DNA of 63,826 nt, counting the filler, from Reclinomonas americana ATCC 50394 (lineage: Eukaryota): the NCBI GenBank assembly GCA_048213135.1. It is 7 parts of 3 records of this genome, joined end to end, with 100 filler letters (N's around TTAATTAATTAA, not from the genome) between each part and the next. Parts side by side here need not be neighbours in the genome. Positions count along the whole stretch, not along the records: positions 15,368 to 46,388 come from PS015327.1; 6 more parts are not named here. One strand, written 5' to 3'. A program made the translations under genes and the position numbers. Below are positions 4,625-63,826 of this stretch, in pieces. The notes under the pieces are model-generated. The model saw nothing but the letters and a program-made list of their open reading frames with translations, had not been told where the DNA came from and searched no databases. Within the stretch, counting starts at the first letter, position 1. Each line of letters starts with the position of its first letter.

Positions 4625-7793
<3,169 letters not shown>

Positions 7794-9403: not shown

Positions 9404-9821
9404 AGGCGGGCGAAGGGTTGTATATGAGTGAAGCTCGAATCCTCTCTTGTAGTTGGTATCCATGATACGATGCAGTCCCTGGAGACTGCAAAGAGTTCAC
9501 TGTCAAAATGCATTGACGACGCCGAGCGTCTGCAGAGATCCACGCATGCAGGAAAACTGCCGCATCACCACCACACAGAGTGAGGTGCTCCTACTGCGGG
9601 GCAGAAATCGTCGGTTCTGAGTAGGTTGGCGACCCGGTTGTTTGCGTGCACGGATAGCTCTAGTTGATGGTTTGTAAATAGATGGGAATGGTACGGAGTA
9701 CCGACACAGAAGCAAATGAAACCCAGTTTGTCGAAACGAGGAGTCTGTGAAGAATGAGAGACAATCGGGCGAAAGCGAGCAACGAAACGCTACGCACGCA
9801 CTCGCCTCTGCAACAAGCAGA

Positions 9822-10970: not shown

Positions 10971-11292
10971 GCAATGAGCAAAGAGGTTGAGCGCTGGTAT
11001 TCAAATGAAGGCCACTCGTTGCCTGTCTTGTCTGGGTCACAACGGCGAAGATGATTCGAGGCGCAGACATCAGCATCAGGTCCATGGCTGAATTCATGTG
11101 TGCAGGCACATGAAAGACAACCTAGAGTCCACCATTCAATTGCAGTGACGATGCCAAGTGTCTATAGAGATCCACCCATGCAGGAAAGCTGACTCATCGC
11201 CACCGCGCCGAGTGAAGAGTTCAACCGAGAAGTGAGAAACAGAATCGCGAGCGAGCAATCCACTCTCTCACACACGCTTTTGCGAGAACAGA

Positions 11293-12397: not shown

Positions 12398-12604
12398 GAT
12401 CAGTCGGGCAAAGGGCTGCGCACTACTGCCAATGAAGATGCATTCTTCTCTTGTCTGGGTCAAGACAGGGAGATCGATGATTCGAGGCACAAAGGCCAAT
12501 GCATTGACAAAGGGAGCCCATTCGTGCAGGAAAACTGAAGTCATCGCGGGAGACAATCATGCATGAGTCACTCATTTGCTGTCTCACACCCACGCCAAAG
12601 TGAA

Positions 12605-13713
12605 ATGATCTCCCAGGTGCGTGCGTCTCTGTCGCTCGCTACCCCTTTGTTGCTCTCGCTCACCGCGAATGAGCGACACAGGTGTTGAAGGGACACACCA
12701 ACTGGGTGGAGTCTGTCGCGGTCACCCCCGACGGTAAGCACGTCGTGAGCGGGAGTTACGACAGCACAGTGCGTGTGTGGTCAATCGCAAGTGGAAGAGA
12801 AGTGTGTCGGTTGGAGGGATGCACGCAAGACGTGCTGTCGGTCGCCGTCACACCCGACGGTCTGCACATTGTGAGTGGAGATGGCGGTGTTGACGTGTGT
12901 GTGTGGTCGCTGGCGAGTGGCGACGAAGTGCGACGGATGGAGGGACACTCTGGAACGGTGTTCTGTGTGGCTGTCGCACCCGATGGTCAGCACATTGCCA
13001 GTGGGAGCAGCGACGAGACGGTGCGAGTGTGGTCGGTCGAGAGTGGAGAACAAGTGCGACAGTTCGACGGACACAACGGATGGGTGTTCTCTGTTGCTGT
13101 CACACCTGATTGTCAGCACGTCGTGAGCGGCACCGACGACAAGACGGTGCGAGTGTGGTCACTTGTGACTGGGAAGATAGTGTGGAACTGCCGTGGACAC
13201 ACTGCCTTTGTGTTTTCTGTCGCCGTCACTCCCGATGGCCAGCACATTCTCAGTGCGAGTGAAGACGGGACAGTGCGGGTGTGGTCACTGGCGACTGGGC
13301 ACGAGGAGCGGCGGCTGGAGGGGCACGCTAACATGGTGATGTCTATCGCTGTCACCCCCGACGGTCAACACGTTGTGAGCGGGAGCAAGGACAAGACTGT
13401 ACGCGTGTGGTCTGTAGCGAGTGGCGAAGAAGTGCAACGATTGGAGGGACATACATCTGGAGTGCGTTGTGTCGCTGTCACTCCCGACGGTGAGCACATT
13501 GTCAGCGGGGGTGAGGACGAGACGATTCGAGTGTGGTCCTCGCCGCGTGGCCTCGCCCAGCAGGAGCTCTTGGCGGCGCGTTTGGCTGTGCTGGCCGTCA
13601 ATGAGCTGTTTGCTGAGGACGATAATCGCGACTGGATCCTTGTGGATGTCGTACTGCGGTGCTTTGTGGCGGAGGATGCAGCCGTGATTGAACGCCGTGC
13701 GCCGGGGTGGTGA
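12605..13713 (+). CDS. WD40 array copy 4
   Basis: Exon 12605-12616 (MISQ), intron 12617-12681; seven WD40 repeats plus tail. Confidence 0.88.
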
Positions 13714-14018
13714 GCAATGAGCAAAGGGGTTGAGCACTGGTATTCGAATGAAGGCCACTCGTTGCCTGTCTTTGAGTCACTTCGCGATCGGTGAAGACAG
13801 ACATTCGTCCGCATGCATTCTCCTGACAACGTCGAAGCCAGTCATCGACGTTGCCAAGCGTCTATAGAGATCCACCCATGCAGGAAAACAGACATAACAG
13901 CACCGCGCCGAGTGAAGAGTTCAACCGGGAAGTGACAATCTATGCATGATGAGCGAGCAATCCACTCTATCTCTCTCTCACACACACACACACGCAAGCG
14001 CGCTTTTGCGAGAGCAGA

Positions 14019-15175
14019 ATGACATCCAAGGTGTGTGTGTGTTTCGCTTTTTTTGTCTTGTGTGTACGCGTGTGTTTGTGTGCAAGTGTGTATTTGCGTG
14101 TTTCGCTTCTGCCCTGCGTCTATTTATGGGTGTTTCACCATGAGCACAGGTCTTGAAGGGACACAGAAATGAGGTGACCTGTGTCACCGTCACCCCCGAT
14201 GGTCAGCACATTGTAAGTGTGAGTATAGATCGCCAAGTCTACGTGTGGCCACTGGAGAGTGGAGAGGAGGTGAGATGGGATGAGTTCGGCGAAGCGATCT
14301 GGTCTGTTGCCGTCACACCAGACGGGCAGCACATAGTGTGTGGGAGCGACTGTTGCATTGGAGTCCTCTCCTTTGCGAGTGGTGACTTTGAGCTTGAAAT
14401 ATCAGATTACAATGATTCGGTGATGTCCGTCGCCGTCACTCCCGACGGTCAACACGCTGTGGGTGGCAGTGTTAACTCAAGAGTGCGCGTGTGTTCACTG
14501 GCGACTGGCAAGGAGGTGCAAGTGTTCGAGGGACACACCGATCGCGTACAATCCGTCGCTGTCACTCCTGACGGTCAACACGTGGTGAGCGGCAGTGATG
14601 ACAAAACAGTGCGCGTGTGGTCACTCGTGACTGGCAAGGAGGTGCGACGACTGGAGGGACACTCTGGAACGGTGTTCTGTGTGGCTGTCGCACCCGATTG
14701 TCAGCACCTCCTCAGTGGGAGTGACGACAGGACAGTGCGGGTGTGGTCATTTGCAAGTGGACAAGAAGAGCAGCGGCTCGAGGGACACACCGACATGGTG
14801 ATGTCTGTGACCGTCACCCCCGATGGCAGGCACGTCGTGAGTGGGGGCTTTGACCGGACTGTCCGAGTGTGGTCGCTGGCGAGTGGGGAGGAAGTGCAGC
14901 GATTGGAGGGACATACATCTGGAGTGCGTTGTGTCGCCATCGCCCCCGACGGGCAGCACATTGTCAGTGGCAGTGATGACGAAACGATTCGAGTGTGGTC
15001 GTCGCCGCGTGGCCTTGCCCATCAGGAGCTCTTGGCGGCTCGTTCAGCCGTGCTGGCCGTCAACGAGCTGCTTGATGATGAGGAGGACCCCGACTGGATC
15101 CTTGTCGATGTCTTGCTGCGGTGCTTTGTGGCGGAGGATGCCGAAGTGATCGCGCGCCGTGCGCCGGGGTGGTGA
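14019..15175 (+). CDS. WD40 array copy 5
   Basis: Exon 14019-14030 (MTSK), intron 14031-14149; seven WD40 repeats plus tail. Confidence 0.88.
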
Positions 15176-15584
15176 GCGATAAGCAAAGGAGCTGAGCCCT
15201 GGTATTCGAATGAAGGCCACTCGTTGCCTGTCTAAGGGAAGATGACTGTTGGAGAAGATTTTATCTTNNNNNNNNNNNNNNNNNNNNNNNNNNNNNNNNN
15301 NNNNNNNNNNNTTAATTAATTAANNNNNNNNNNNNNNNNNNNNNNNNNNNNNNNNNNNNNNNNNNNNGTTGTTGGTCGTGTGGTCGCTGGCACAAAAGTT
15401 GAGTCAAGCAACCGAGACGGTCCACTGTTAAAATGCAGTGACGTTGCCAAGCGTCCATAGTGATACACCCGTGCAGGAAGGCTGGCTCGTCACCGCGAGG
15501 TGCAATAAACTCGAAGCGACTCGCAATCGTGCGATCCTGTCCCACGGCTCTTACTCACGCTCGTCTCTACTCTGTGAGAACAGA

Positions 15585-16684
15585 ATGACGTCCAAGGTGT
15601 GCTCGTGTTGTCTCTCATCTCTGTCATGCTTCCGTGTGTTTCACCATGAGCGCAGGTCTTGAAGAGAGACGCGGGCGAGGTGTCATGTATCGCCATTACA
15701 CCCGATGGTCAGCACATTGTATGCGGTGACACCGGTGGCCAGCTTTGCGTGTGGTCGCTGGCGAGTGGAGAGGAAGTGCGTCGGTACGAATACGATGACG
15801 CTATCTGGGCTCTTGCTGTCACCCCAGGCGGGCAGCACATCGTGTGTGGGAGCGAAGACTGCACTGTTGCAGTGCTTTCCGTTGAGAGTGGAGAAAGAGT
15901 GAGTCGTTTGAAAGGGCACACTTGGTGGGTGGTTTGTGTCGCTATTGCCAGCGACGATCAACACGTCGTGAGTGGCAGTCTTGACTGTTCAGTGCGAGTG
16001 TGGTCACTGGCGACTGGCAATGAGGTGCGACGATTAGTGGGACACACAGATTTTGTGTATTCTGTCGCTGTCTCACCAGACAGTCAGCACGCGGTGAGCG
16101 GGAGTTGGGACAAGACTGTGCGAGTGTGGTCGCTGGCGAGTGGTGAGGAGGTGCGACGACTGGAGGGGCACACTGCATGTGTGTTTTCAGTCGCGGTCGC
16201 TTCAGATGGCCAGCATATAGTGAGTGGTAGTTTGGATAATACGGTGCGAGTGTGGTCACTGGCGACTGGGCAAGAAGTGCGACGCTTGGAGGGACACACC
16301 GATTGTGTGTATTCCGTCGCCATCGCCCGAGACGATCAGCACATAATAAGTGGGAGCTCTGACAGGACAGTCCGAGTGTGGTCACTGACGAGTGGCGAAG
16401 AAGTGCGACGATTGCAGGGACATACATTCGGAGTGCGTTGTGTCGCCATCGCCCCCGACGGGCAGCACATTGTCAGTAGCAGTGATGACGAAACGATTCG
16501 AGTGTGGTCGTCGCCGCGTGGCCTTGCCCATCAGGAGCTCTTGGCGGCTCGTTCAGCCGTGCTGGCCGTCAACGAGCTGCTTGATGATGAGGAGGATCAC
16601 GAGTGGATTCTTGTCGATGTGGTGCTGCGGTGCTTTGTGGCGGAGGACGCCGAAGTGATTGAACGCCGTACGCCGGGGTGGTGA
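15585..16684 (+). CDS. WD40 array copy 6
   Basis: Exon 15585-15596 (MTSK), intron 15597-15655; seven WD40 repeats plus tail. Confidence 0.88.
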
Positions 16685-16949: not shown

Positions 16950-19900
16950 TCAAGTGACCTCCTCCACGTCGTCATCACCATCGGCGCCGGGCAAAACGGG
17001 ATTCACTTGTGCGGGAGGCGGTCGCCTGCGCGGACCGCGAAGTGCGCGCAGGTGGCTACGCGAGGCGAGATGTGCTTGCCAGCTGACATCGCCTTGGAAA
17101 CGACGACCGCCACATGCGTCGCACGTGTGCACCGAGCGCAAAAGCAGCGAATTGGCGGAGAGGCCGGAGGTGGTGGCGGGATCTGGTGGGTCGTCGGGGA
17201 GCGGCGGAAGGCGGCCGGCAAAGAAATCTGCACAGGCGTTTTTTGAGCGTCTTTCCATATAATGTATGCAGGCAGGCACGCATACGCACCTGCGGCCTCG
17301 TCGCGCAGGCGAGCCACCTCCGCAGGCCACTGCGTGAGGTCTGAGGCATAGGTGATGGAGGTGTGAGACGGATGGCAGAGTTCTGCAATGGAGAGGTGGA
17401 GACGTGACGAAACCCGATGAATCCGCCTGTCGCCAGTAAAAGTACTTGTCGGCCAGCGGTCGCAGCGTGTTGGTGATGTACTTGTGCTGGCGCATGGCCA
17501 AGTGTACAGTGTGCGTCACGAGCGAGGTAATGGAGGTGGCGAGCAGGCCTAAACGAGTAGAGGGATGAGAAGGGGGAGGAAGGGGCAAAGTGAGGGAAGA
17601 CGAAAATGGGAGCCAGTAGAAATGGCAGGTGGCGAGCGATTGAGGGAGCAGAGTGAGTGATCAAGAACGAGGAAGGAGAGTAAAGATCGAGGCCAAAGTG
17701 CAGGCAAGAGAGGAGGGCAAACAAAGAGATACCAAGAGATCGGCAGCAGACAGTGAGAAACCAAGGCAGAATAGCGAGCACACGAGAGAGGAGAGGGAGC
17801 ACGCAAGGTAGGAGGGTGAGAGATTGAGGCAGGAGAGCGAGAAAACTAAGCAGCAAGCCCAGCGAACGGCAAGTGGGAAAGGAGAGTGAGAGACGGAGAC
17901 AGAAGTGCAGAAACGGAAAGAGCAAACAAAAGGGAGAGCACACGATCGGCAATTGGGAGCGAAAGGGCGAGCGTCCAAGGTAAGAGACCATTGGAGGAAT
18001 GCAGGGAGTGAGCTTATGGGGACGGAGAGTGAGCAACCAAGATGGCAGACGAACAGGGAGACCGAAACCCCAGTAACTCAGAGCGTGCGAGCTTTCACTG
18101 TAGGAGACTGAGAAGACAATTATGGAGAGTGAAAGATGAGAGAGAGAGAGAGAGAGAGACAGAGCAACGCTGGAGAGAGAGAGGCAGCACAAGACGAGAG
18201 AGACGAAAAGTCGAGGAAGGAGAGGGAGCGATCAAAAACAAGAACTGGACTGCAAGAAGAAAGTCTACGTTGAGGAAGCAAACACGGAGATTGGTAAGAA
18301 AGGAACTGGGGAAGAGAGTGTGTGTGAGAGAGAGAAAGAGTATGCTGTCCAACTGTGCGCAATTCACGAGAGCTGATGCAAGTCCCTTGCTTTTTTCGTG
18401 CGCCTCACCCTCATCCTCCACCACACCCTCGCCCGCCTCGACATATCCCAGAAACTCCTTGCACCCGATCGACTGCAGCAACCCGCGCTCCGTGTCCGCC
18501 ACATCTACGGCACGCTGACGGCACTCGGCAACAAACTCTCGGATCTCGTTCAGCAAGCCGCGCTGCCGTCGTCGCACATGCGATTAGCATGAAAACAAGA
18601 TGCTTCCGCCCTCAGATCACACACCTCCACCATCTTGTCGACGCGCTCCCGTAACCTCTCGTCTAGCACCTCCTTGTTGCAGTGCGTGTGCACAAACATC
18701 ACATTCGATGGCCGGAATCTGCCCTCGCCAATGTCTGTCCCTCACGCTCACACTCCCACTACTCCCTCCAGAGTCACTCACCTCGGTCGCTGCGAACAGG
18801 CACCAGCCGCGGCGTCACTGCCCTCCCCCGCTGCTGCTGCTGCTGCTGCCGACTCAGCGCCACGAATGAGCTCACTCTGCGGCCTGCCCGTCTCCGCAAA
18901 GATCTCCAAGCTGCGCCGTACACGCCGCACGTCGTTCTGATGCAATCGCTCCGCCATCCACGGGTCCACCTCCTGCAGTCGCCGATACAGCTCCTCGCCG
19001 CTCAATCCGTCCAGCTCCGAGTGTACAGCCGCCTGCTCGCCGGCCTGGGAGGCCAGTGCGTGCACCAGCAACGAGCGCAGGTAGTAGTGTGTGCCGCCGA
19101 CAATGACAATTGGGTGGCCGCGGCGGGAAATGTCACGAATCTGTGGAGGGGGAAGGGTGGAGGCAAAGGGGATAAGAGGGGAGAGGGGGAAAGGAGATGG
19201 GGGAGGTGAGAAGGGAGAGAGAAGGGAGAGAGAAGGGAAGGGAATGGGAAGGGAAAGAGGCACAAAGAATGGAAAGAAAAGGAGAACAGTGGGAGATGGG
19301 ACAGCGAAAGAAATCAAGGCAGGATGATGGAGTGAGGGGAGAGTGAGAAACCAGCGAGAGAAAGAGAGAGAAAGAGAGGGAGAGGAAAAGAGAATGACGA
19401 AAAACGGTGAAAGGAACAGAAAGAGGAAGGGACAAAGAATGGAAAATGAAGGAGAAAGGATGGCGAAAGAAAGAAAATGGGGTGAGGGAGAGCGGGAGGA
19501 AAGACAAAGACTGGAGAACGACAAAGACAGAACAAGGGGGACAACGTGTGAGAAACGAGAGACAACTGAGAGAGACATAGATGGAAAAGAGGAGATAGGA
19601 GAGTGGACGGGAAAGAGAGAGAAGTGCGCGAAGAAATGACAATTTGGAGAGTGAAGATGAGAGAGAGAGACAGAGCAACGCTGGAGAGAGAGACAACACA
19701 AGACGAAAGAGAGCGAAAAGTCGAGGAAGGAGAGGGAGCGATCAAAAACAAGAACTGGACTGCATAGAAAACAAACCGCAAGAAGAAGTCTATGTTGAGG
19801 AAGATTGGTTAGAAAGGAACTGGGGAAGAGAGAGTAGTGCGCGAAGAAATGACGAAAGAAACAGAGCGGCAGTGACTGCCGACCAATCTCACCAGCTCCA

Positions 19901-39911: not shown

Positions 39912-40303
39912 ATGTCAACGGTGTGTTGTGGTGTGTGCTTACGTGTTCCCACTATGTGCTGACCACTGCCGCACAGTTCACTGTCCGCGTCGTCGCCTCA
40001 CACGATTCTGCTCTCGCCGTGTTCGTGGAGGGCATGTCGTCCGCGTCCACCCTCGCCGATTCGCTGCGCGAGGCCACGCGCTTGCTGCGTGAGAAGAGTG
40101 GAGATGAGGGACTGGAGATTGTGGGAGTGGAGAAGCCCGTGGAGTTTGACCTCGCAGTCTTGAGTGGCGTTCCCTTGAGTGCACTGGGCATCAAGGCCAG
40201 CACGCCGCTGGTTGTGTGGGTGAGCATGTCGCCAGCTGCCTCCGCTGCCGCTGCCGTGGGCGGGGTTGCAAGGTGATTGAGTTCGTGACGCATTTGTTCA
40301 GCG

Positions 40304-40334
<31 letters not shown>

Positions 40335-43300
40335 CTCTCTCTCTGTGTGTCTCTCTCTCTGTGTGAGCGCTTGTGTGTGTGTGTGTGTGTGTGTGCGTGT
40401 GTGTATGTGTGTGTGTGTGTGTGTGTGAATGCTCACTATCTACATCAGCATCATGTCCAGTGCATCGGCATTGTCAGCGCGGTTTGTTGTCAGACTGTAG
40501 GTTCCTCACGCTAGTTGTTGCAGCTCACGTAATCTCGCACAGAACGGCGTTCAACCGCGTCGACATGGCCTTTGAGGTGGTCGTCGACGCCCTGCGACTA
40601 CGCTGTCAACTCGTACTGGCACAGTTCAGTCGCGATCATCCCGACTTTGATGTGCGGGCGTGGACTCCGGATGTGTGGACGCCGCCGTTGTTCTGGCATC
40701 CACTGACGATCAAGGCGTGGCACGATCAACATGCTCCACTCGCCCCTGGTCGCGTCAAGTTGTTTGCACCGCAGAAGCAGCACATGCTCGACTGGAAGTC
40801 TGTTTTTGACGCCGACCCCGCCACAGATCCCTCATGTGACGCTTTCGACGTGACAGCCTTGGTGTCAATCCTACTTTTTGGTGGCTTTGTGTTTGACGAC
40901 GGTCGCAAGCTGCTGCTGATCGACACCGTCGATGAGCGGAAAGCGGTTGAACAGTTGCGAGAGGTGCGGAACGAATTGGTTCACGGTTCGTCAGCCTGGA
41001 CCGAGTCCAGTGTACAAGAGTATCTCGGTGATGGCGGTGTATTTTACGCTCTCCTCGGACGGCTGCGCCTTCCTGTGGATGTGATTGATGGATTTGCATC
41101 ACGGATTCGTGAGGCGCGCCACCTCGACTTCAGCGTCAGCACATTCGAGGAACGACTGCATCGACTGGCTGTGCGAGAGATGGACTATTATCACGAAGAT
41201 GAGAGTGTGCGCAAGGACATGCAGACGTATGTGCCACTGCTGTGCTCGCGTGAGCGTGACGTCTCATCGAGGGACAAGATGACGAATCTATTGACGGAGA
41301 TGGATGCTTTCCTCTCCGACACCAATACCACGCAGCGAGTGTTGGTGCTATTCGGTAACAGTGGCGCCGGCAAGACCACCACCATGTCTGTGCTGGCTGA
41401 GCGAGCATGGCGACAGTGGCAGGCGAAAGCAAGTCGGCGTGTGCCTGTGCGTGTGCCTCTTGGTGCACTGCGCAATGCTGATGTGCGGTTGTTGGAGGAG
41501 GCACTGGGGCGACTGTCGCCCGAGTTGGGATTCAGTGAGCCGGATGTGCGACGACTGAAGGAGGAACCACTGTTGTTGTTGCTTGACGGGTACGACGAGC
41601 TGTATCGTGGCGTGAATCTGTTTGTCAAGAATCAGTTGGATGTGTGTCGCGATGTGAAGGTGATTATCACCTGTCGCGGCGATTACGCACTGACGGCATT
41701 GGATGGAGCGACGCAGTATCGACGGTACTTTGCGCCGGTGGATGCACGTGGACAGTTGTGCATGCAGCAGCTGATGGAACGACACATTGCACCGTTCAAC
41801 AAGGAGCAGATTGAGGAGTACTTTGAGCGAGTGGTACGGATGGGCGGTGATGACGGTGAAGTGAGGTGGTCGACTGCAGAGGAGTACATTCGTGCTCTGA
41901 AGAGTGTGCATGGACTGGATGTGCTGGTGTCGAATCCATTCCTGCTGACAGTGGTTGCAAGTGTGCTGCCGCAGTTGGTGGCGAGTGGTGTGCAACGACC
42001 GACCCGATGTGATGTGTTTGACCGATTCATTCGACAGTGGATTGTGCGGGAACAGGATAGGCAGACGCGTCTTGGTGCGGAGAGTGTGCCGAATGAGGAG
42101 ACGTGTCTCTCGTTCTGTGAGGGACTGGCACGGTTGATGCATGAGAGGAATGTGGTGCGCGTGACATCAGAGGAACGAGCATTCGAGGAAGACATTGCTG
42201 ACTTTGGTGGTGCACCACTTGCCAGTGGGCAAGTGGATGAAGGACCGTTTGACAAGTTCCTCGGCTACAAGAACCAGCATGTGCGAGTATGCTGTCCGAT
42301 TGTGCGACGGTATGGGACGACGCAGTGGGGTTTCGTGCATCTGTCGCTGCTGGAGCACTGTGTGGCACGGCATGTGTTTGCGTGGGAGACGTGGGATGAG
42401 GAGAGGAGGATGAAGATGCAAGATGTGCAGCAGCATGTGCTGGCAGTGCGACTGCTGAATGATCGACCATCGTTGGTGGAGCAGATGGCCGAGGTGGTGC
42501 GACGGTCGTCTCGGTTGCAAGAGAGATTGTGGGAGGTGATTGGGTTGTCGAGGGAGGTGGACAGTCGGCGAGTGGTGAAGGCAGCGGCGAATGCCGCAAC
42601 GGTGCTGTGCGTGGCGCAAGTGTCGTTCAGTGGGCGCAATCTGTCGGGTGTGCGAGTGAGGGGTGCGGATTTGAGGGATGCGGTGATGCACAGGACGGTG
42701 TGGAGGGGAGCGGATTTGCGAGGGGTGAATGTGTGCCTGGCGTATGCGAGGAAGGCGGATTTCAGAGGGGCGGATGTGACGGGAGTGAAGTGGCCGAGGA
42801 AACCGATGATGGGGCACAGTGAAGCTGTGATGGCTGTTGCCATTACTCCCGATGGTCAGCACGTTGTGAGTGGCAGTTGGGACAATACTGTGCGGGTGTG
42901 GTCGCTGGCAAGTGGCGAGGAGGTGCGTCGACTGGAAGGTCACACGAGTGGGGTGAATGCGGTAGCAGTAACTCCCGATGGCCAGCACATTGTGAGTGGC
43001 AGTAATGACGATACTGTACGGATGTGGTCGGTGGCAAGAGGCGAGGAGGTGCGCCGAATGGAAGGTCACACGAGTAGGGTGTGGGCAGTGGCTGTGACAC
43101 CCGATGGTCAGCATATTGTGAGTGGCAGTTGGGACAAGACTTTACGGGTGTGGTCGGTGGCGACTGGCGAGGAGGTGGTCCGACTGGAGGGCCACACGAG
43201 AGAGGTACATGCAGTGGCAGTGACACCCGACGGTCAGCACATTGTGAGTGGCAGTTTGGACGAGACTGTACGAGTGTGGTCGGTGGCAAGTGGCGAGGAG

Positions 43301-44623
43301 GTGCGCCGACTGGAAGGCCACACGCGTGGGGTGTGGGTAGTGGCAGTGACACCCGATGGCCAGCACGTTGTGAGTGGCAGTGCAGATGAGACTGTGCGAG
43401 TGTGGTCGGTGGCAAGTGGTGAGGAGGTGCGTCGACTGGAAGGCCATGCGAGTGAGGTATCCGCAGTGGCAGTGACACCCGATGACCAGCACATTGTGAG
43501 TGGCAGTGGGGACAATACAGTACGAGTGTGGTCCGTGGCAAGTGGCGAGGAGGTGCGCCGACTGGAAGGTCACACAGAGTGGGTGCGTGCATTGGCGATG
43601 ACAGCAGATGGCCAGCACATTGTAAGTGGCAGTTATGACGAGACTTTACGGGTGTGGTCTGTGGCAAGTGGCGAGGAGGTGCGCCGACTGCAAGGCCACA
43701 CGGATGCGGTGGCTGCAGTGGCAGTGACACCCGATGGCCAGCACATTGTAAGTGGCAGTGATGACAGAACTGTGCGGGTGTGGTCAGTGGCAAGTGGTGA
43801 GGAGGTGCGCCGGCTGAATGGCCACACGGAAGAGGTGTGGGCAGTGGCAGTGACACCCGATGGCCAGCACGTTGTGAGTGGCAGTTGGGACAATACTGTG
43901 CGGGTGTGGTCGCTGGCAAGTGGCGAGGAGGTGCGTCGACTGGAAGGTCACACGAGTGGGGTGAATGCGGTAGCAGTAACTCCCGATGGCCAGCACATTG
44001 TGAGTGGCAGTGATGACGATACTGTACGGATGTGGTCGGTGGCAAGAGGCGAGGAGGTGCGCCGAATGGAAGGTCACGCGGGTGAGGTGTGTGCAGTGGC
44101 CGTGACACCCGATGGCCAGCACATTGTGAGTGGCAGTGATGACAAGACTGTACGAGTGTGGTCGGTGGCAAGTGGCGAGGAGGTGCGCCGACTGGAAGGC
44201 CACACGAAGGAGGTGTATGCAGTGGCAGTGACGCCCGATGGCCAACACATTGTGAGTGGCAGTGATGACAAGACTGTTCGATTGTGGTCGGTGGCAAGTG
44301 GCGAGGAGGTGCGCCGACTGCAAGGCCACACGGGATGGGTTTCTACAGTGGCAGTGACGCCCGATGGCCAACACATTGTGAGTGGCAGTGATGACAAGAC
44401 TGTTCGATTGTGGTCACAAGCAAGTGGTAATGGAGCGACGCTAGGCACTGGGGGCTTCTATTCTGGCGACGGCGCATTTCGCAGGACTGTCTTCACCGCC
44501 CAGTTCATCGTCCGTGCTGTCGGCAAGTCCGTTCACCTGCTGCGTTGCCAACCAGGCGGTGACTTGCTGGAGCGTATCTGTGGTTCTTTCTTACCCGACT
44601 TCACGGGTGCCTTGCATAAGTGA
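39912..44623 (+). CDS. NLR-like STAND protein: Ubl-like - HEPN-like - NACHT - pentapeptide repeats - 13x WD40
   Basis: Exons 39912-39920 (MST), 39977-40272, 40543-44623 join in frame; FDVTALVSIL...LREVRNELVH; Walker A GNSGAGKT; Walker B LLLLLDGYDE; VIITCR; NPFLL; F.H.S..E; AAANAATVL; GADLRDAVMHRTVWRGADLRG; WD40 array. Confidence 0.9.
42810..44415 (+). repeat. 13 tandem 126-bp WD40-coding repeats with high internal identity
   Basis: gcagtggcagtgacacccgatggccagcacattgtgagtggcagt-type core recurs every 126 bp. Confidence 0.92.
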
Positions 44624-46057
44624 ATGAGGTTGAAACAGTCGTTGATCAGCGTTGTCGACAATACTCTGCGGTTCACTGTCATGTATCCAACGAGTAACGC
44701 AATGATGCAGCATGAAGAATCGTCGTATCGCCGGCTTCTCGCAGGCAACATCGAGGATCTCCGCTGCCGCAGAACATGTCACGATCGTGGCGGGATCGCA
44801 CATACGTGCTGACGAGGTTCCGAACGATTAGTTGCAGCGTATACTACGTATTCACACAGGGACTTAGACGGCGAAGCTGCTTAGCAACAGTGCGACGGCA
44901 TCTCCGTTGACGATGGCCACCGCGGTTTACCTGAGTGTGTTCATCTCACATTTCACCGGCACCGCCGCCCTCCCCATTCGCCGCCACCATGCTTAGCCCG
45001 GTCTCCACCAAGAGCAGGGTGAACTGCGTCAAGGCCGGCCGTTGGACATAGCTGATCAGCGCCTTGTCCCACAACGGGTAAAGGGTCAAGGGACGAGGAA
45101 CAGCGATTCCTCGCATGCGAAGAGGCTTACAGGGTTAAAAAAGACGCTGATCACACTCACGAATCGGTTCAAGGGTAAAGGGTTGAGGAAGACACTGAGC
45201 CATGCCGTTGACCCTGTAAAGACCTCGTTCCTTGCGACGTCGGTGTCGAGTTGTCCTCCGCACGTAAACTCCGCCTCTCAGCGCGTGATGGCCAGCACGC
45301 CAGCGGTGCGTCGACCACTTCTGCGCATCAAAGCGATCATCCTCCCTCACACTCACCCCGTCTGTCATCCACAGCTGCCGGCACCTCAACGCCTCACCGA
45401 CGAAGACGAAAGCATCGATGTGGAGCGCGGCAGAGGAGCAGACGGCATCGCACGCAAGTGCACATGCCGCTACTGCTGGGAGGAGTTCTGGTGATACGCC
45501 AAGGTCAGCCGATCGCTGTACGCGCATCAAGAGAGCATTCATTGACTTGACCTGATGCATCGCAGAACGCCTTGCCCTTTATCATTGTGTTTGTGGGCGT
45601 GGCGCTGATTCTGGTGTTGGTGTTATAAGACGAGACGCTCTCCCCCGTGCCTGCGGATGACGCTCTCCGCGCCGATGAAAAGAAACCGACAGGGATACCA
45701 CACATGTTGTGACAGGCGCGGTGGCTGATGATTGAGTGAAGGGGCACGAGAGGATCAAGAGGGAATGGTGGACATGAGGAGAAGGAACTTGCAGGAGCAA
45801 ATGGCAAGTTGACGGCGAGGAGCTGGATTACAAGATCACAGGCTGATGATTGAGTGAAGGGGAGGATCAATGCGGTAGGTTGGACGTGGGGTGAAGGAGG
45901 AAGGCTGCGTGAGATGGTGAGAGCTGAGAAAACGGCTTGAAGCTGGATTACAAGATCACAGGCTGCAGTTGAACGTGGACAAGAGGCCGTTGGACCATAG
46001 GGACAGATGCTTGTGCATGAGGAGTTCGCGCGCTTGATCTTCGGAAAAAGAGCGTTT

Positions 46058-58300: not shown

Positions 58301-59193
58301 TTGATCGAGGCTGGCTGCCGCCTGCTGCAACGGTTAGCGACGCGGTGTGGACTCCCAGCGGAGGCTGTCGGCAGGCTTCCTTCGTTGGTGGCCCGCGTGT
58401 GCTTGTCGGTTTGTTTTCCGCAGCTGTTCGCTTGCTGCTGTATCGCTCACCGTCTCCGACAGCGCACGCATTTCGACTGGTGCGCCGCGTCGCTGTGCGT
58501 GGTGGGTCTTGGGGCGGGCGAGAGCGACGAGGAGATTGTGTCCACGGTCTGCGCGCTGGCGTCGCAGTGGTGGGCCTCGTGGTGCTGGACGGCAAGGTAT
58601 GCAAAGGAAAAGGGATTGCGCGACTGGTGCTGACTCATGCATGCACAGATCGGTCGCCGTGCACGTGGCCGACGGCGGAACGACGCCACTGCGACTGGAG
58701 ACGTGTGCGGCGGTGGCTGTCGATGTGCTTCGGCGGGTGGATCCCTGTTTATTCAACGCGTGCATTCGCGATCACGCGCCACTGCTGCACGTGCGTGCGC
58801 CGTCACTCTCCTCTCCTCTCCCTTGCCGATTCACTCATCGCGGGGCGCAGGTGGTGAAGCAATGGCTGCGGCAGTGCTTTGTCGATGTGCTCGACTGGGA
58901 CAGCGTGGTCGCGTATCTGGTGCTCGTGGCGACGCGTGGGGCTCCAATGGCAGTTGCGCGTATGAAGGGCGAGGGTGCATGCATATAGTTTCCTGACTTT
59001 TTTTGGATGCGAGCAGGTGCTGACGTGCGTGGCGGTGCTGCATCACCAGCAGGCGCTGCTGCGGGAGTGTGCGAATCGGAGGTGTTTGTTTGAGGCGGTG
59101 GTGTTGCAGCCGCCGAGGGGGTTTGTGTTGATGGAGTACGTGGGGGTGATGAGGGAGTGGGAGGGGAGGTTTGCAAGGCAGTTGGAGGTGTGA
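46058..59193 (+). CDS. TBC1D32: TBC1D32 / BROMI (protein broad-minded) homolog, many exons; start uncertain, first confident exon at 47023
   Basis: VLQHLEELDENFH|KYKLVRLL, DILCGPAWPDL, HFDWCAASL, QWLRQCFVDVLDWDSVVAYL, CVAVLHH, GFVLMEYVGVMREWEGRF resemble BROMI N- and C-terminal motifs. Confidence 0.82.
50925..51290. repeat. 13-bp minisatellite (ccttcccctggtt)n, intronic, spans a gap
   Basis: Directly visible tandem unit. Confidence 0.85.
51530..52235. repeat. ~45-bp minisatellite, intronic
   Basis: Unit gagagagacactgatcgcacacgcatcggtcaagggttaagggtg, more than 12 copies with one interruption. Confidence 0.88.
57105..58240. repeat. ~13-bp minisatellite (cgctgtgctctct)n, intronic
   Basis: Directly visible tandem unit; explains the long L/S/C/A-rich spurious ORFs. 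Confidence 0.9.
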
Positions 59194-60894: not shown

Positions 60895-61214
60895 TTAAGG
60901 TGCGGCCGCCCCCTTCTTCTCCGACTGCTGCTTCTCTTGCCACTTGGCGTGCTTGGCGGCAAAGTCACGCAAGTACTCCTCCGTTTGCATCTCCGTTAGC
61001 CTACAGCAATAGGGGACGAGCATGAGATGAAGGCCGTGGGTGGAGAGCAGGGAAGCGAGCGCAAACCTGGACACGGCCCTCTCGAACGCAAACACTTCTT
61101 CGGCACCGGAAAACAGTTGCGGTGGCGGCTCCACAGCCGGCTTGCCTGCCACGTGCACCTTGTGTGGCTTGTCACCCAAGTGATCAATCACTTCCATCAG
61201 CTTGGCGTTTGTCT
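60895..61214 (-). CDS. 3' fragment of an unidentified gene on the same small contig
   Basis: Open frames with a probable GT-AG intron ~61093-61001; terminal frame LTEMQTEEYLRDFAAKHAKWQEK...AAAP*. Confidence 0.3.
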
Positions 61215-61234
61215 NNNNNNNNNNNNNNNNNNNN

Positions 61235-62922
61235 GGGGCTTGTCACTGCGTACGTCCCACACACAGGTGCGCCGATCGTAGCCACCCGAAGCAATCACAT
61301 TCGTGTTGGTGGGGTGCGCTGTCACCGAGTTGACCCACGCGCCGGCATCGTGACCGCCGGTCAGCGTACGCTTGATAAACTTGCCGTCCATTGCGCGCGT
61401 ATCCCACACACGGATAACGGAATCCGAGTGACCCGTGTACAACACTTGCGGGGCGGTGGGGAATGTGGTCACCGAGAGAATGGCGCAGTCGCATGCCTGC
61501 ACTCTTTTTAGAAGAAGATCGAAATATCATTCTCTGCAAGTATGCGACTCACCATGCGCGTCGCCGGCTCTCCCGTGTACATGTCGCGAATGTGCAGTTC
61601 GCTGTCGAGACTCACCGAGCACAGATGCGTGTCGTTGGTCCAGTGCAGCGCCGTCACGGCCTCACGATGCGCAGCAATCAAATCTCCAGAACGCTGTGCC
61701 GAGGAAAGAAAACTGAGCATCACTCTCTCATGCAACACGGTCGCACAGCGCGTTGCGCAACGTTACGCGGAATGCCGCGAGTGCCGGGCTCCGAGCGGCC
61801 ACGCTTCTTCTTCGGCTCGCTGCTGTCACCACCGCGAGCCTCACCGTCATCGTCGACGTCGGCTGTCTCGGTCTTCCACAGACCGACACGCCCGTCCCAC
61901 GATCCACTGGCCACACGCGATTGCGAGGGGTGCGCCGCAAGCGCCTCCACGGAATCGGTGTGCCCCTCAAACACCATCTGCTGATGCAGAGTCCACTCGC
62001 CTGTCGCCGCCGAGGCGGCTGCCTTCTTGCGACCCTTGCTGCGCGCACCCACATCGGCATTGCTCAGCGAGTACAGGTAAAACTCGGACTCCTTCGTGGC
62101 CACCGCCAACTGGAAGGCGTTGGTGGGACTGCTGAGGAGACCATCGACTGCAAGCAATGAACACCATTGAGGAGACAACTTCATGCATCGCTCAGTGTAT
62201 GCGCTACACGCTCACCGCCAAGTTCCAGGCCATTCTGCATGTACTTGATGCAGGTGACGGGGCCCGAGAGCTCACTGGGCGACTCAAAACGCATCTCACC
62301 GCTGTCGTCGTACAGTCGCAGACGCTGGCTGTAGGTGCCGGCCAGTATGAATCCTCGCGCTCCACCAGCGACCGCCCCCACCCAGTCATCTTGCGGCAAC
62401 TGCCTCTCCACTTGCGGTGGCCTCATGGCCTACACCACACAGTGTGATGAGCACACACTCTCAAAAGACATGCATGCATGTGCAGAATGCACCTCAAAGT
62501 ACTCGAGTGTCAACTCATTCTCCACCGACAGATTGTGCTTCACCAAGTACTTCTCCAGCGACGTGCGCAGCAGGTTGCCATCGATGAGGAAGTTGAACGG
62601 CGTCGATGGCTCTGAGCATAAGTCGGTGAGCGAAAGCGTGTGCATGTGCATGTGCACATGGCCGACTGGCGACCACAACAACACGTCTGTGTGCGTTCGT
62701 GCACTCACCGAGTGAGAGGAGGTGATTCACGATCTCCGACAGGCCAAACCGCGTGAGGTTTACAGGCACGGCCAGCGGTGGAGCCGACTCTGGCAGTGCG
62801 AGCGAGAATGTGCGTGTGATAAAGCGCACGAGGACCGAGCTGTTGCTGCTGATACTAGCGCTGCCGCTGCCGCCCACGGGCTCATCACCAGCTGCGTCAA
62901 TACTCTCAGCGTCGACCTCCAT
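61235..62922 (-). CDS. WDR12: Ribosome biogenesis protein WDR12/Ytm1 (NLE domain + WD40), multi-exon
   Basis: VRFIT...LAVPVNLTRFGLSEIVNHLL|PFNFLIDGNLLRTSLEKYL...ENELTLEY, DDWVGAV, GHTDSVE, ASGSWDG, KKKR. Confidence 0.92.
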
Positions 62923-63014
62923 TGGCGTGTTGTGATGTGATGCAGTTTTTGCCGGGTTGTCCTGTTTGTTGACAGGATATCATTTTTTATTTCGACGACA
63001 AGCGCCAAGACAAC
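62923..63014. promoter_or_regulatory. Probable compact bidirectional promoter
   Basis: Only ~92 bp, AT-richer, between the divergent ATGs of WDR12 and the next WD40 gene. Confidence 0.45.
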
Positions 63015-63826
63015 ATGTTCCGCCTCGTCGTACCTCCCCGTGTGGCAAACGAGCCTGTCACTCTGCGCAGCGCTCGCAGTGAGTGCTTGTGTCGCAGCGT
63101 TTGTGTTTGCTCGGTGGCCGTGCCACTGCCGGTGTTCACGTCGCCACCCCACCTCGTGCTCGCCGCCGGTTGTGAGGATGGTGTTGTCCGTCTCTTCGAT
63201 CTCGTCGACGGCAAGGAGATCGGCGCATGCCTGCCGCCAGCAGAGAGTTTAGTCGGAACCGGCGGCGAGTGTGGACCAGTGCAATGTGTGGCATTCTCGC
63301 CGTCAAACCCTCACGTGCTCTTCAGTGGTGGTGGCGACAAGCAGTGGGGTGACTACGACCTGCGCTGCTGGTCGTGGGAACGCGATTCACCGATCGCGAC
63401 GGCGGCTTGCACGTTGCGGTGGCGTGCTGTTGGACACGTGGGGTGCATCACAGCGTTGGCGGTGGCCCCGAACGGCCTGCTGGTGTTCACCGGCTCCACT
63501 TCGTGCACAGTGCGGGTGTGGCTCGCTGAATCGGGCGCACCCTTGTGCTCCATGACTGGCCACTGTGGTCCTGTTCGTGGACTGGCGGTGACACCCGACT
63601 GCACCGAGATCATCAGTGGTGCCGAGGACCGCACGGTGCGAGTGTGGGGCGCAGTCTCGGAGGAAGGTTCCTTGCGTGACACGACCACCACCAGCAACGT
63701 CACGGCAATGGCGCTGGCGCCAAACGGCCGCTTCCTCGTCACTGGCCGCCAAGACGGTGTCGTGGCCGTGTATCGCACGAATGATTTCACGTTGTCGTGG
63801 TCGTACCTGCTCGGTCGCGGCAGCCC
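63015..63826 (+). CDS. WD40-repeat protein, 3' partial (runs off window)
   Basis: Open frame from ATG 63015: LAAGCEDGVVRLFD, GHVGCITALAVAPNG...TVRVW, GHCGPVRGLAVTPD...SGAEDRTVRVW. Confidence 0.82.
   Translation, partial: MFRLVVPPRVANEPVTLRSARSECLCRSVCVCSVAVPLPVFTSPPHLVLAAGCEDGVVRLFDLVDGKEIGACLPPAESLVGTGGECGPVQCVAFSPSNPHVLFSGGGDKQWGDYDLRCWSWERDSPIATAACTLRWRAVGHVGCITALAVAPNGLLVFTGSTSCTVRVWLAESGAPLCSMTGHCGPVRGLAVTPDCTEIISGAEDRTVRVWGAVSEEGSLRDTTTTSNVTAMALAPNGRFLVTGRQDGVVAVYRTNDFTLSWSYLLGRGS

What the first reader, a model, noticed from the sequence alone, without database searches (positions are those of the whole stretch)
39912..44623. Protist NLR-like receptor with a putative HEPN RNase effector: Ubl-HEPN-NACHT-pentapeptide-WD40x13
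Seen: N-terminal to an intact NACHT domain is a helical region with FDVTALVSILLF and AVEQLREVRNELVH (RNELVH at 40967-40984). Known: RxxxxH is the HEPN ribonuclease active-site motif, and D.T.L..(I/L)L plus (L/I)R..RN...H is typical of the DZIP3/Swt1-like HEPN domains fused to STAND NTPases. The NACHT-pentapeptide-WD40 backbone is known from some fungi, ciliates and bacteria. Inference: ligand binding by the WD40 propellers triggers NACHT oligomerisation and HEPN dimerisation, causing RNA cleavage and dormancy or cell death, i.e. a one-protein sensor-executioner immune system. I do not recognise this full architecture as described.
Basis: partly seen in the sequence, partly recalled or inferred. 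Interest (0 to 1): 0.85.

Follow-up and report, generated by a model that had tools for sequence, protein, structure and literature searches.

The report
NACHT-WD40 receptor with probable HEPN head
An intact eukaryotic gene encodes an immune-receptor-like switch protein (NACHT ATPase, pentapeptide linker, 13 fast-varying WD40 blades) whose unique front end looks like a HEPN RNA-cutting domain, a combination already known from corals, molluscs and bacteria, though the HEPN call is not proven here.

Summary
One open frame (first ATG 40565, stop 44621-44623) encodes NACHT (Pfam E 7.9e-10, above cut-off), pentapeptide repeats (4.6e-8) and 13 WD40 units. RNELVH lies exactly at 40967-40984.

The backbone belongs to a known family. 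It is 27-39% identical to NACHT-pentapeptide-WD40 proteins of Mortierellomycota fungi, their Mycoavidus/Glomeribacter endobacteria and a few other bacterial MAGs.

The first ~200 residues are unique: three sequence searches found no homologue. Support for HEPN is suggestive only:
- Sub-threshold hits of five HEPN models from two libraries all fall on the RNELVH helix, with 0 HEPN hits in 24 and 21 control fragments.
- 22 of 30 ESM Atlas neighbour clusters carry HEPN_DZIP3, DUF4559 or HEPN_Swt1.
- Against: a home-made Swt1 profile was not significant, and two AlphaFold models were unusable (pLDDT 39.5 and 42.7).

The upstream "Ubl" exon looks coding and weakly ubiquitin-like. Its splicing to the main frame is unproven.

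The WD40 units are highly conserved internally, with five hypervariable codons.

HEPN-NACHT receptors are already published for invertebrates and bacteria. I read this as a new variant of a known kind and put HEPN at about 0.65.

The parts
39912..39920 (+). Putative mini-exon 1 (ATG plus two codons) followed by a GTGTG donor
   Evidence: Sequence. Six neighbouring WD40 genes show the same mini-exon plus ~55-nt intron layout. Inferred; no RNA data.
39921..39976 (+). Putative 56-nt intron 1 (GTGTG...CACAG)
   Evidence: and analogy with the array genes. Inferred.
39977..40273 (+). Upstream coding-like exon (81-99 codons), a candidate ubiquitin-like domain. It has an in-frame ATG at 40034 and an in-frame TGA at 40274-40276.
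   Evidence: Codon-usage score is +0.305 bits/codon in frame against -0.31 and -0.54 in the other frames; GC3 is 0.75. No Pfam family at E<=0.001; only UGSC at E 0.027. In the ESM Atlas all named neighbour sets are ubiquitin-like, but scores are 0.86-0.89 with 100-129 shared features, so this is a lead only.
40220..40500 (+). Spacer holding TC/TG microsatellites (40304-40427). It is either intron 2 or an intergenic spacer before a separate start at 40565. Two in-frame intron options exist: 40220-40477 (phase 0) and 40273-40500 (phase 2).
   Evidence: and my reading of splice signals. Not resolved: no sequencing run was listed.
40565..41164 (+). Unique N-terminal, mostly helical region (residues 1-200 from ATG 40565): the putative HEPN domain
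   Evidence: No homologue found. HEPN-model hits fall on residues ~120-156 only. ESM Atlas neighbours are listed. The low-confidence AF2 secondary structure is helical from about residue 93.
40844..40879 (+). FDVTALVSILLF helix
   Evidence: Its spacing to the R of the motif is 40 residues, against 36 in a bacterial Swt1-type domain fetched (my count from the printed sequences).
40967..40984 (+). RNELVH: candidate Rx4H catalytic motif (R135, N136, H140)
   Evidence: RNx3H occurs in 0.8% of shuffles. It is the centre of all HEPN-model hits.
41165..41335 (+). Pre-NACHT segment shared with the family (contains YVPLLC)
   Evidence: The N-termini of bacterial relatives share a YIP..G segment just before the P-loop. 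tblastn matches to Mycoavidus start at P0001 residues ~226-320. 109 of 115 homologue N-termini form one blastp cluster.
41336..41833 (+). NACHT NTPase domain, with Walker A at 41354-41377, Walker B at 41573-41599 and sensor 1 at 41660-41680
   Evidence: PF05729, E 7.9e-10, 39.3 bits against a 26.7 cut-off. Motif coordinates.
41834..42619 (+). NACHT-associated helical region
   Evidence: Covered at 96-100% by the region 300-800 alignments to family members.
42620..42793 (+). Pentapeptide-repeat linker
   Evidence: PF00805, E 4.6e-8; MfpA/Qnr-type NCBIfam hits; coordinates.
42812..44449 (+). 13 WD40 units of 42 aa, highly conserved internally, with hypervariable codons 4, 5, 7, 23 and 25 of each unit
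44450..44623 (+). 57-residue C-terminal tail and stop codon

Best explanation
This is a eukaryotic NLR-like STAND receptor in four parts.
- An intact NACHT NTPase.
- A short pentapeptide beta-helix linker.
- 13 WD40 blades that are kept nearly identical except at five codons per blade. These probably form the ligand-binding face.
- A lineage-specific N-terminal helical domain that is most likely a divergent HEPN ribonuclease of the DZIP3/Swt1-like kind, with an intact R-N-x3-H motif.

Proposed mechanism (inferred, not shown):
1. A ligand binds the variable WD40 surface.
2. Binding releases the NACHT switch.
3. The protein oligomerises, which brings HEPN domains together into active dimers.
4. 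The dimers cleave RNA, giving growth arrest, cell death or destruction of invader RNA.

Shown here: the NACHT, pentapeptide and WD40 domains, family membership of the backbone, the repeat variability pattern and the uniqueness of the N-domain. Inferred: the HEPN fold, RNase activity, the trigger and the outcome.
For: Backbone.
- Pfam scores are above cut-off for NACHT, Pentapeptide and WD40.
- 311 family members score E<=1e-3 among 8000 candidates scored. The best is Linnemannia elongata at 3.7e-59, 29% identity and 100% coverage of residues 300-800.
- 160 of 548 candidate stretches in prokaryote genomes encode relatives.

N-domain as HEPN.
- It sits in the effector position and ends where family homology begins.
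- RNx3H appears in 0.8% of shuffles.
- Pfam: HEPN_Swt1 at E 0.055-0.13 and HEPN_RiboL-PSP at 0.22.
- PADLOC: CARF2--CARF_HEPN at 0.0013 and 0.03, and RTasHEPN at 0.02. These are all three PADLOC hits of the fragment.
- Controls: 0 of 24 PADLOC fragments and 0 of 21 Pfam fragments from the same window hit any HEPN model.
- ESM Atlas: of the 30 nearest clusters, 11 carry HEPN_DZIP3, 5 DUF4559, 1 both, 5 HEPN_Swt1 and 8 no common family. The top scores are 0.93-0.94 with 189-197 shared features.
- The N-term ranks 1st of 579 window fragments against my own Swt1 HMM.

Receptor-like evolution.
- Units average 81% nt identity. Unit 2 against unit 10 is 99%.
- At codons 4, 5, 7, 23 and 25, pN is 0.57 and pS 0.40. 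At the other 37 codons, pN is 0.061 and pS 0.297.

Precedent. HEPN-NACHT receptors occur in invertebrates and HEPN effectors on bacterial NACHT/STAND proteins (PMC3710099, PMC10236652, PMC8662601, 10.1101/2022.07.19.500537; passages read).
Against: - No HEPN model reaches a curated cut-off (13-14 bits against 27.5).
- HEPN_DZIP3 itself never appeared in hmmscan.
- My Swt1 HMM gave only 5.5 bits (E 0.41), against 5.0 for the best decoy. With the whole ORF as target it ranked 5th of 435. hhalign gave P 0.02 over 24 columns.
- Chance Pfam hits at E 0.021-0.092 occurred in 3 of 21 control fragments.
- The Atlas recognition value of 2179 is below the tool's 2300 mark.
- Both AF2 models are unusable (pLDDT 39.5 and 42.7), and Foldseek found nothing (best E 0.76).
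- No homologue or paralogue exists in any collection searched, so conservation of R and H could not be tested.
- The hypervariable codons were chosen after seeing the alignment.
- There is no expression or splicing evidence.
Confidence: 0.55

Rival explanations
1. Same STAND receptor, but the N-terminal 200 residues are a lineage-specific helical adaptor or other effector domain unrelated to HEPN. On this reading RNELVH is a chance look-alike, and signalling goes through protein-protein contacts or another activity.
For: No significant profile or fold match was found. All similarity is confined to one helix. Rx4H alone occurs in 54% of shuffles. Chance sub-threshold Pfam hits are common, at 3 of 21 controls. 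The Atlas recognition value is below the tool's mark.
Against: Five HEPN models from two libraries pick the same helix, while 0 of 45 control fragments hit any HEPN model. 22 of 30 Atlas neighbours carry HEPN-type families and none carries an unrelated family. RNx3H occurs in 0.8% of shuffles.
Confidence: 0.3
2. The domain has a HEPN fold but acts as an RNA-binding or sensing module, or as a regulatory module, rather than as the executioner. DZIP3 is described as RNA-binding, and the Swt1 HEPN dyad is predicted to be inactive. The output would then lie elsewhere, for example with partner proteins.
For: PMC3710099 (passages) describes inactive or RNA-sensing HEPN versions. PMC8662601 (passage) suggests HEPN-NLRs may be cytoplasmic RNA sensors. 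No other effector domain was found in the protein.
Against: The R, N and H of the motif are all present, which the 2013 survey associates with active versions. The WD40 array with hypervariable positions already provides a sensor.
Confidence: 0.12
3. The upstream exon is a separate small ubiquitin-like gene (about 102 codons ending at TGA 40274-40276). The receptor then starts at ATG 40565, so the protein is HEPN-NACHT-pentapeptide-WD40 without a Ubl.
For: An in-frame stop lies at 40274-40276. The 289-nt spacer before ATG 40565 is TG/TC-rich and similar in size to the spacers between the neighbouring array genes (284-483 nt). No ATG lies in the main frame upstream of 40565.
Against: Two GT...AG pairs (40220-40477 and 40273-40500) would join the exon in frame to the main ORF (my reading). 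Both segments are on the same strand and close together. The exon has the same codon bias as the receptor.
Confidence: 0.5
4. The receptor serves self/non-self (allorecognition-type) incompatibility rather than pathogen defence, as the HET-E/HNWD NACHT-WD40 genes of Podospora do.
For: It shows the same repeat regime of internal conservation plus hypervariable positions (PMC4986451 passages).
Against: Nothing is known of the organism's biology, and no HET or other incompatibility effector is present. The two roles are not exclusive.
Confidence: 0.1

Closest known systems
Invertebrate HEPN-NLRs: DZIP3-like or CXorf38-like HEPN fused to NACHT with LRR/WD40 (corals, molluscs, amphioxus, Nematostella, Capsaspora)
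   Same: An N-terminal HEPN-type domain sits in the effector position of a NACHT receptor with C-terminal repeats. The ESM Atlas neighbours of the N-domain are mainly cnidarian and mollusc clusters carrying HEPN_DZIP3 or DUF4559. Described in PMC3710099 Table 1, PMC10236652 and PMC8662601 (passages read).
   Different: HMMER found no sequence homology, with 0 hits in 1.84 billion representatives. The NACHT-pentapeptide-WD40 backbone belongs to another clade. The source looks like a non-animal eukaryote but is unidentified. That DUF4559 is the CXorf38 family is my recollection, not a tool result.
NACHT-pentapeptide-WD40 proteins of Mortierellomycota fungi and of Mycoavidus/Glomeribacter endobacteria (also Chlamydiae, Coxiellaceae, Gammaproteobacteria and Nitrospirae MAGs)
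   Same: 27-39% identity across the pre-NACHT segment, NACHT, helical region, pentapeptide linker and WD40. The Mycoavidus WD40 units show the same conserved-scaffold and variable-position pattern in the alignment consensus.
   Different: Their N-termini are Arm-like repeats (PF23948), long other regions, or only ~100 residues. None resembles the N-domain here, and no HEPN Pfam id was seen in the printed, truncated domain lists.
Fungal HNWD/HET-E type NACHT-WD40 NLRs with highly internally conserved repeats
   Same: WD40 units are kept alike, with variation focused on a few positions. This is interpreted as concerted evolution plus diversifying selection (PMC4986451, abstract and passages). 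Here units average 81% nt and 80% aa identity with five hypervariable codons.
   Different: The effector there is HET or another domain, not HEPN, and there is no pentapeptide linker. Mean aa identity here (80%) is below the 85% threshold that paper used.
Bacterial HEPN-STAND / bNACHT anti-phage proteins
   Same: A HEPN RNase is listed as an enzymatic effector on NACHT/STAND NTPases (PMC3710099; 10.1101/2022.07.19.500537, passages). The logic is one protein acting as sensor, switch and effector.
   Different: Those are prokaryotic. No homology of the N-domain to 12 bacterial Swt1-type HEPN domains was seen beyond the motif helix.
RNase L / Ire1 KEN domains (mechanistic analogue; established knowledge, recalled)
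   Same: They are HEPN RNases switched on by ligand-induced dimerisation or oligomerisation.
   Different: They have a different HEPN family, a different upstream module (ankyrin/pseudokinase or kinase) and no STAND NTPase.

Membership tests
NACHT (STAND NTPase) | Profile match above the curated cut-off, with Walker A, Walker B (acidic pair) and sensor-1 Arg | tested here: met
   PF05729 scores 39.3 bits against a 26.7 cut-off, E 7.9e-10. The motifs lie at 41354-41377, 41573-41599 and 41660-41680.
NACHT-pentapeptide-WD40 clade (Mortierellomycota / Mycoavidus type) | Collinear homology across NACHT, helical region, pentapeptide linker and WD40 | tested here: met
   Best hit E 3.7e-59, with 96-100% coverage of residues 300-800 for most hits. 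Identity to six bacterial members is 32-37% over the full alignment. tblastn relatives were found in 160 of 548 candidate stretches.
WD40 beta-propeller | Repeated WD40 units | tested here: met
   PF00400 gives 13 stretches, E 3.7e-161. 13 units of 42 aa were parsed.
HEPN superfamily | Rx4-6H motif with a polar residue after R, on a helix | tested here: met
   RNELVH lies at residues 135-140. The region is helical in both AF2 models, which are low-confidence. RNx3H occurs in 0.8% of shuffles.
HEPN superfamily | Significant profile match to a HEPN family over the domain | tested here: inconclusive
   Pfam HEPN_Swt1 scores 13-14 bits against a 27.5 cut-off (E 0.055-0.13), and HEPN_RiboL-PSP E 0.22. 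PADLOC CARF_HEPN gives E 0.0013 and 0.03, and RTasHEPN 0.02. Matches cover the motif helix only. My own Swt1 HMM gave 5.5 bits, E 0.41. Controls gave 0 of 45 HEPN hits.
HEPN superfamily | Four-helix up-down bundle fold | tested here: inconclusive
   AF2 without an alignment gave pLDDT 39.5 and 42.7. Foldseek best E was 0.76, which is meaningless on such a model.
HEPN superfamily | Conservation of R and H among relatives | not testable with these tools
   No relative of the N-domain was found in any collection, and no genome is held.
HEPN_DZIP3 (PF18738) specifically | Match to the family model | tested here: not met
   PF18738 never appeared in hmmscan at E<=10. Only ESM Atlas feature neighbours carry it, in 11-38% of cluster members.
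Ubiquitin-like (beta-grasp) domain, upstream exon | Profile or fold match to ubiquitin-like families | tested here: inconclusive
   No Pfam ubiquitin family was found; only UGSC at E 0.027. All named Atlas neighbours are ubiquitin-like (PF00240, PF11976), but scores are 0.86-0.89 with 100-129 shared features, which the tool rates as a lead only.
Highly-internally-conserved-repeat NLRs (fungal HNWD type) | High identity between repeat units, with variation focused on few positions | tested here: met
   Units average 81% nt and 80% aa identity. Five codons have pN 0.57 against 0.061 elsewhere. This is below the 85% aa criterion of PMC4986451. The codons were picked post hoc.

The most novel reading that the evidence does not exclude
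An unidentified non-animal eukaryote has built its own one-protein sensor-executioner. It combines an orphan, highly divergent HEPN RNase (possibly preceded by a ubiquitin-like domain) with a NACHT-pentapeptide-WD40 chassis otherwise shared by Mortierellomycota fungi and intracellular bacteria. In the boldest version, the tandem array of six WD40-only genes 24 kb upstream, built from the same repeat family, serves as a cassette reservoir that diversifies the receptor's sensing surface.
Probability: 0.12. Interest if true: 0.75.

Novelty: new variant of a known kind. Interest (0 to 1): 0.45.

Why it matters
HEPN-headed NLRs are repeatedly catalogued in invertebrate genomes, but no eukaryotic one has been tested functionally. 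PMC8662601 says targeted studies are still needed.

This gene is compact and almost intron-free, has an intact R-N-x3-H motif, and encodes a small unique head domain. That makes it a convenient candidate for the basic experiment: does forced proximity of the head give R/H-dependent RNA cleavage?

The gene also extends the NACHT-pentapeptide-WD40 chassis beyond Mortierellomycota and their endobacteria. That bears on how STAND receptors move between intracellular bacteria and eukaryotic hosts. It also shows the fungal style of repeat hypervariability in another lineage.

If the head is not HEPN, it is an orphan effector domain on a well-understood switch, which is still a modest lead.

Tried and rejected
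Homologues of the N-domain.
- The search for homologous proteins on region 65-320 at near length: none at E<=1e-3.
- The N-domain alone at E<=10: none.
- phmmer against 1.84 billion representatives: 0 hits.
- Metagenome scan with the 696-aa N-domain plus NACHT: 196 pattern matches, none confirmed.
- Genome-contig scan with the single protein: 123 pattern matches, none confirmed.
- tblastn within the window: only self.
- Earlier-findings look-ups: nothing for this genome or sequence.

Structure and family searches.
- PDB sequence search: only a chance 0.64 hit.
- NCBIfam and PHROGs on the N-domain: nothing relevant.
- Two AF2 single-sequence models were unusable, and Foldseek on the second was meaningless.
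- Homodimer prediction of residues 1-200: "no answer" (ipSAE 0.00, controls not run). This is not evidence either way.

Sequencing runs. None was listed for 39600-44700, and no RNA holder was listed.

Other N-termini in the family.
- phmmer of the N-domain against the N-termini of 115 of the 120 listed family members (those with a P-loop at position 40 or later), and against 79 bacterial loci, gave only weak matches in the shared pre-NACHT segment.
- A search for a second STAND gene in the window found only one weak hit (E 1.7) at 62224-62676, with no Pfam support.

Other checks.
- Rfam and tRNA scans of the window were empty.
- The window's organism was not identified. I considered a trypanosomatid-like polycistron, because of the TC/TG tracts, and rejected it. 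Coding ORFs lie on both strands, and the array genes show short spliceosomal-type introns.
- Recent exchange of repeats between the receptor and the upstream WD40 array is not supported: mean 64% nt identity, best 79%.
- Literature searches for "HEPN, NLR, protist" and "NACHT, unicellular eukaryotes, NLR, protists" returned 0 papers. This is the only basis for saying that a protist HEPN-NLR was not found in print. Supplementary tables of the cited papers were not read and may list such architectures.

Full report
**1. What is at the locus**

The + strand carries a 1416-codon open frame at 40373-44623. Its first in-frame ATG is at 40565, which leaves 1352 codons. Residue numbers below count from that ATG.

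Pfam places these domains:
- NACHT at residues 258-423: E 7.9e-10, 39.3 bits against a 26.7 cut-off.
- Pentapeptide repeats at about 686-743: E 4.6e-8.
- 13 WD40 stretches: E 3.7e-161.

The Walker A, Walker B and sensor-1 stretches are intact, at 41354-41377, 41573-41599 and 41660-41680. FDVTALVSILLF lies at 40844-40879 and RNELVH at 40967-40984.

As a bare pattern, Rx4H is worthless: 54% of shuffles of the 263-residue N-terminus contain one. RNx3H is rarer, at 0.8% of 20,000 shuffles.

**2. The backbone is a known family**

I searched residues 300-800 of the ORF against 5.8 billion proteins.
- 311 proteins scored E<=1e-3 among the 8000 candidates scored.
- The best is Linnemannia elongata: 3.7e-59, 29% identity, full coverage.
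- The 120 listed are Mortierellomycota fungi, their endobacteria Mycoavidus and Glomeribacter, and unnamed metagenome proteins.
- The printed precomputed Pfam lists, many of them truncated, show WD40-type propeller families throughout, with NACHT and Pentapeptide in most.

A profile scan of prokaryote genomes confirmed relatives in 160 of 548 candidate stretches.
- The 79 loci kept are mostly Mycoavidus MAGs.
- There is one Chlamydiae locus, one Coxiellaceae locus, one Nitrospirae locus and three loci from two Gammaproteobacteria MAGs.
- Best-segment identity is 22-39%.

Family homology begins about 40-100 residues before the P-loop. tblastn matches start at ORF residues ~226-320. The bacterial N-termini share a YIP..G segment with YVPLLC here. 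Residues 1 to about 200 are therefore the part specific to this gene.

**3. The N-terminal domain**

No search found a relative.
- Near-length word search on region 65-320.
- The domain alone at E<=10.
- phmmer against 1.84 billion representatives: 0 at E<=1e-3.
- Metagenome scan: 196 pattern matches, none confirmed.
- The window itself.
- The N-termini of 115 family members and 79 bacterial loci.
- PDB sequences.

No genome is held for the window either.

*What speaks for HEPN*
- (i) Position. The domain lies N-terminal to NACHT, which is the effector slot.
- (ii) Profile hits. Every sub-threshold hit that lands on residues ~120-156 and names a nuclease family is a HEPN model.
  - Pfam HEPN_Swt1 at E 0.055-0.13, matching profile positions 74-94 of 115, and HEPN_RiboL-PSP at E 0.22.
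  - PADLOC CARF2--CARF_HEPN at E 0.0013 and 0.03, and RTasHEPN at E 0.02. These are the only three PADLOC hits of the 141-aa fragment.
- (iii) Controls from the same window.
  - 0 of 24 fragments hit a HEPN model in PADLOC at E<=0.1, and 23 of 24 hit nothing.
  - 0 of 21 fragments hit a HEPN model in Pfam at E<=0.3.
- (iv) ESM Atlas feature search on residues 1-212.
  - The 30 nearest clusters fall into five sets: 8 without a common family (top score 0.94, cnidarian), 5 with DUF4559, 11 with HEPN_DZIP3, 1 with both, and 5 with HEPN_Swt1.
  - The four best printed rows share 184-197 of 256 features.

*What speaks against, or limits this*
- No score reaches a curated cut-off, and all hits cover only the motif helix.
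- HEPN_DZIP3 itself never appeared in hmmscan.
- In the Pfam control, 3 of 21 fragments had chance hits at E 0.021-0.092 to arbitrary families. The score level alone therefore means little; only the family identity does.
- The Atlas recognition value (2179) is under the tool's 2300 mark. I regard DUF4559 as the CXorf38 HEPN family from memory, not from a call.
- I fetched 12 Swt1-type HEPN domains from 401 Pseudomonadota genomes, 13 of which had a match, and built an HMM from them.
  - The N-domain ranked first of 579 window fragments, but with 5.5 bits (E 0.41) against 5.0 for the best decoy.
  - With the whole ORF as target it ranked fifth of 435.
  - hhalign gave P 0.02 over 24 columns, residues 120-143.
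- Two AlphaFold2 runs without an alignment gave pLDDT 39.5 and 42.7. Foldseek on the second found nothing: best E 0.76.

I put the HEPN assignment at about 0.65, and RNase function given HEPN somewhat lower.

**4. The WD40 sensor**

The 13 units of 42 residues (42812-44449) average 81% nucleotide and 80% amino-acid identity.
- Unit 2 and unit 10 are 99% identical.
- Units 1-2 against units 9-10 are 94% identical, which indicates a recent internal block duplication.

Variation is concentrated at codons 4, 5, 7, 23 and 25 of the unit.
- There, pN is 0.57 and pS 0.40.
- At the other 37 codons, pN is 0.061 and pS 0.297.
- The five codons were chosen after looking at the alignment, so the contrast is descriptive.

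From general WD40 knowledge (recalled), these positions flank the GH and the SGS-x-D-x turn and lie on the top face of the propeller. This is the regime described for fungal NACHT-WD40 receptors (PMC4986451, abstract and passages). The consensus of the Mycoavidus relatives shows the same pattern.

**5. The 5' end and the "Ubl"**

*Coding potential.* Region 39977-40273 has clear coding-type codon usage in one frame: +0.305 bits/codon against -0.31 and -0.54, with GC3 0.75. Region 39656-39976 does not.

Six WD40-only genes upstream in the same window show exactly this layout, a mini-exon followed by an intron of about 55 nt. The start is therefore credible.

*Is the exon part of the receptor?* This is open.
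- Two GT...AG pairs would join it in frame: 40220-40477 (phase 0) and 40273-40500 (phase 2).
- But the exon also ends at an in-frame TGA (40274-40276).
- The 289-nt TC/TG-rich spacer to ATG 40565 resembles the array's intergenic spacers of 284-483 nt.
- No sequencing run was listed.
- I give the fusion about even odds.

*Fold.* Pfam finds no ubiquitin family. In the Atlas all named neighbour sets are ubiquitin-like, but at 0.86-0.89 with 100-129 shared features. The tool rates that as a lead only.

**6. Mechanism**

*Shown:* an intact STAND switch with a variable propeller sensor, and a unique head domain.

*Inferred from the behaviour of STAND/NLR proteins and of HEPN RNases such as RNase L and Ire1 (established knowledge):*
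1. A ligand binds the propellers.
2. The NACHT domain exchanges nucleotide and the protein oligomerises.
3. The heads pair so that two R-x4-H motifs form an active site.
4. RNA is cut, with arrest, death or invader-RNA destruction as the outcome.

*Rivals:*
- The head is not HEPN (0.3).
- The head is a HEPN fold used for RNA binding or sensing (0.12).
- The role is allorecognition rather than defence (0.1; not exclusive with defence).

A pseudogene is unlikely. The frame is intact over 1352 codons, and the repeat scaffold is under constraint.

**7. Comparison with what is known, and novelty**

HEPN fused to NACHT is already in print.
- Table 1 of the 2013 HEPN survey lists DZIP3- and CXorf38-type HEPN fused to NACHT, Death, CARD, LRR and ankyrin. 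The animals named include Nematostella, oyster and amphioxus; Capsaspora is listed too. It also lists bacterial HEPN-STAND proteins (PMC3710099, passages).
- Coral genomes hold many N-terminal DZIP3-like HEPN domains on NACHT or NB-ARC receptors with LRR, WD40 or TPR repeats (PMC10236652, passage).
- HEPN-NLRs were found in nine invertebrate taxa (PMC8662601, passage).
- HEPN is listed among the effectors of bacterial NACHT proteins (10.1101/2022.07.19.500537, passages).

The chassis is also known (section 2).

What is new here:
- The combination of a HEPN-like head with this particular chassis.
- The head's lack of any detectable relative.
- The host, apparently a non-animal and non-fungal eukaryote. 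It has spliceosomal-type introns and microsatellites, is about 29% identical to the nearest fungal proteins, and has a BROMI_C match elsewhere in the window. It is unidentified.

Two literature searches for protist HEPN-NLRs returned nothing. Supplementary tables were not read.

Verdict: a new variant of a known kind, of moderate interest.

Noticed in passing
window 8714-16684 (+): There is a tandem array of six WD40-only genes of ~230-416 codons as read stop to stop. Each is a single propeller built from the same repeat family as the receptor's WD40 units. Each ends in the same conserved ~50-residue C-terminal tail. Each is preceded by a mini-exon (ATG plus 3-4 codons) and a ~55-nt GTGTG...CAG intron. 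Array units are 64% nt identical on average to the receptor's units (best 79%), so there has been no recent exchange.
   Followed up: partly
L001-L079; P0038, P0048, P0058, P0067, P0071, P0109: The NACHT-pentapeptide-WD40 family is massively expanded in Mycoavidus endobacteria of Mortierella. It is also present in Chlamydiae, Coxiellaceae, Gammaproteobacteria and Nitrospirae MAGs as well as in the fungal hosts. This distribution suggests gene traffic between intracellular bacteria and eukaryotes. No tree was built.
   Followed up: no
window 43820-44071 versus 42812-43063: WD40 units 9-10 are a recent copy of units 1-2 (94% nt identity). Unit 10 against unit 2 is 99%.
   Followed up: yes
window 6001-8000 and 3206-4168: These are AT-rich islands (GC 0.30, against ~0.55-0.58 elsewhere) in which several frames are open on both strands. 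Long perfect AG/GA microsatellites lie at 1927-2144, 6110-6289 and 6390-6516. Their nature is unknown.
   Followed up: no
window 62973-63824 (+), running off the end: Another WD40-containing ORF of a more divergent type. The region upstream of it (61026-62712) has no Pfam match. There is only a weak tblastn similarity (E 1.7) to the receptor's post-NACHT helical part at 62224-62676.
   Followed up: partly
window 18781-19134 (-) and 58338-58985 (+): Housekeeping-type fragments: a tRNA isopentenyl-transferase exon (IPPT, E 1.2e-21) and a weak BROMI_C (Broad-minded, cilium-associated) match at E 1.5e-4. Only part of each profile is covered, which fits multi-exon eukaryotic genes.
   Followed up: no
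window 40274-40276 and 40220-40273: If the upstream exon is a separate gene, its product ends with an Ala-rich tail carrying a Gly-Gly pair four residues before the stop. That loosely recalls ubiquitin-like modifier precursors, although the pair lies about 15 residues after the last predicted strand. This is speculative.
   Followed up: no
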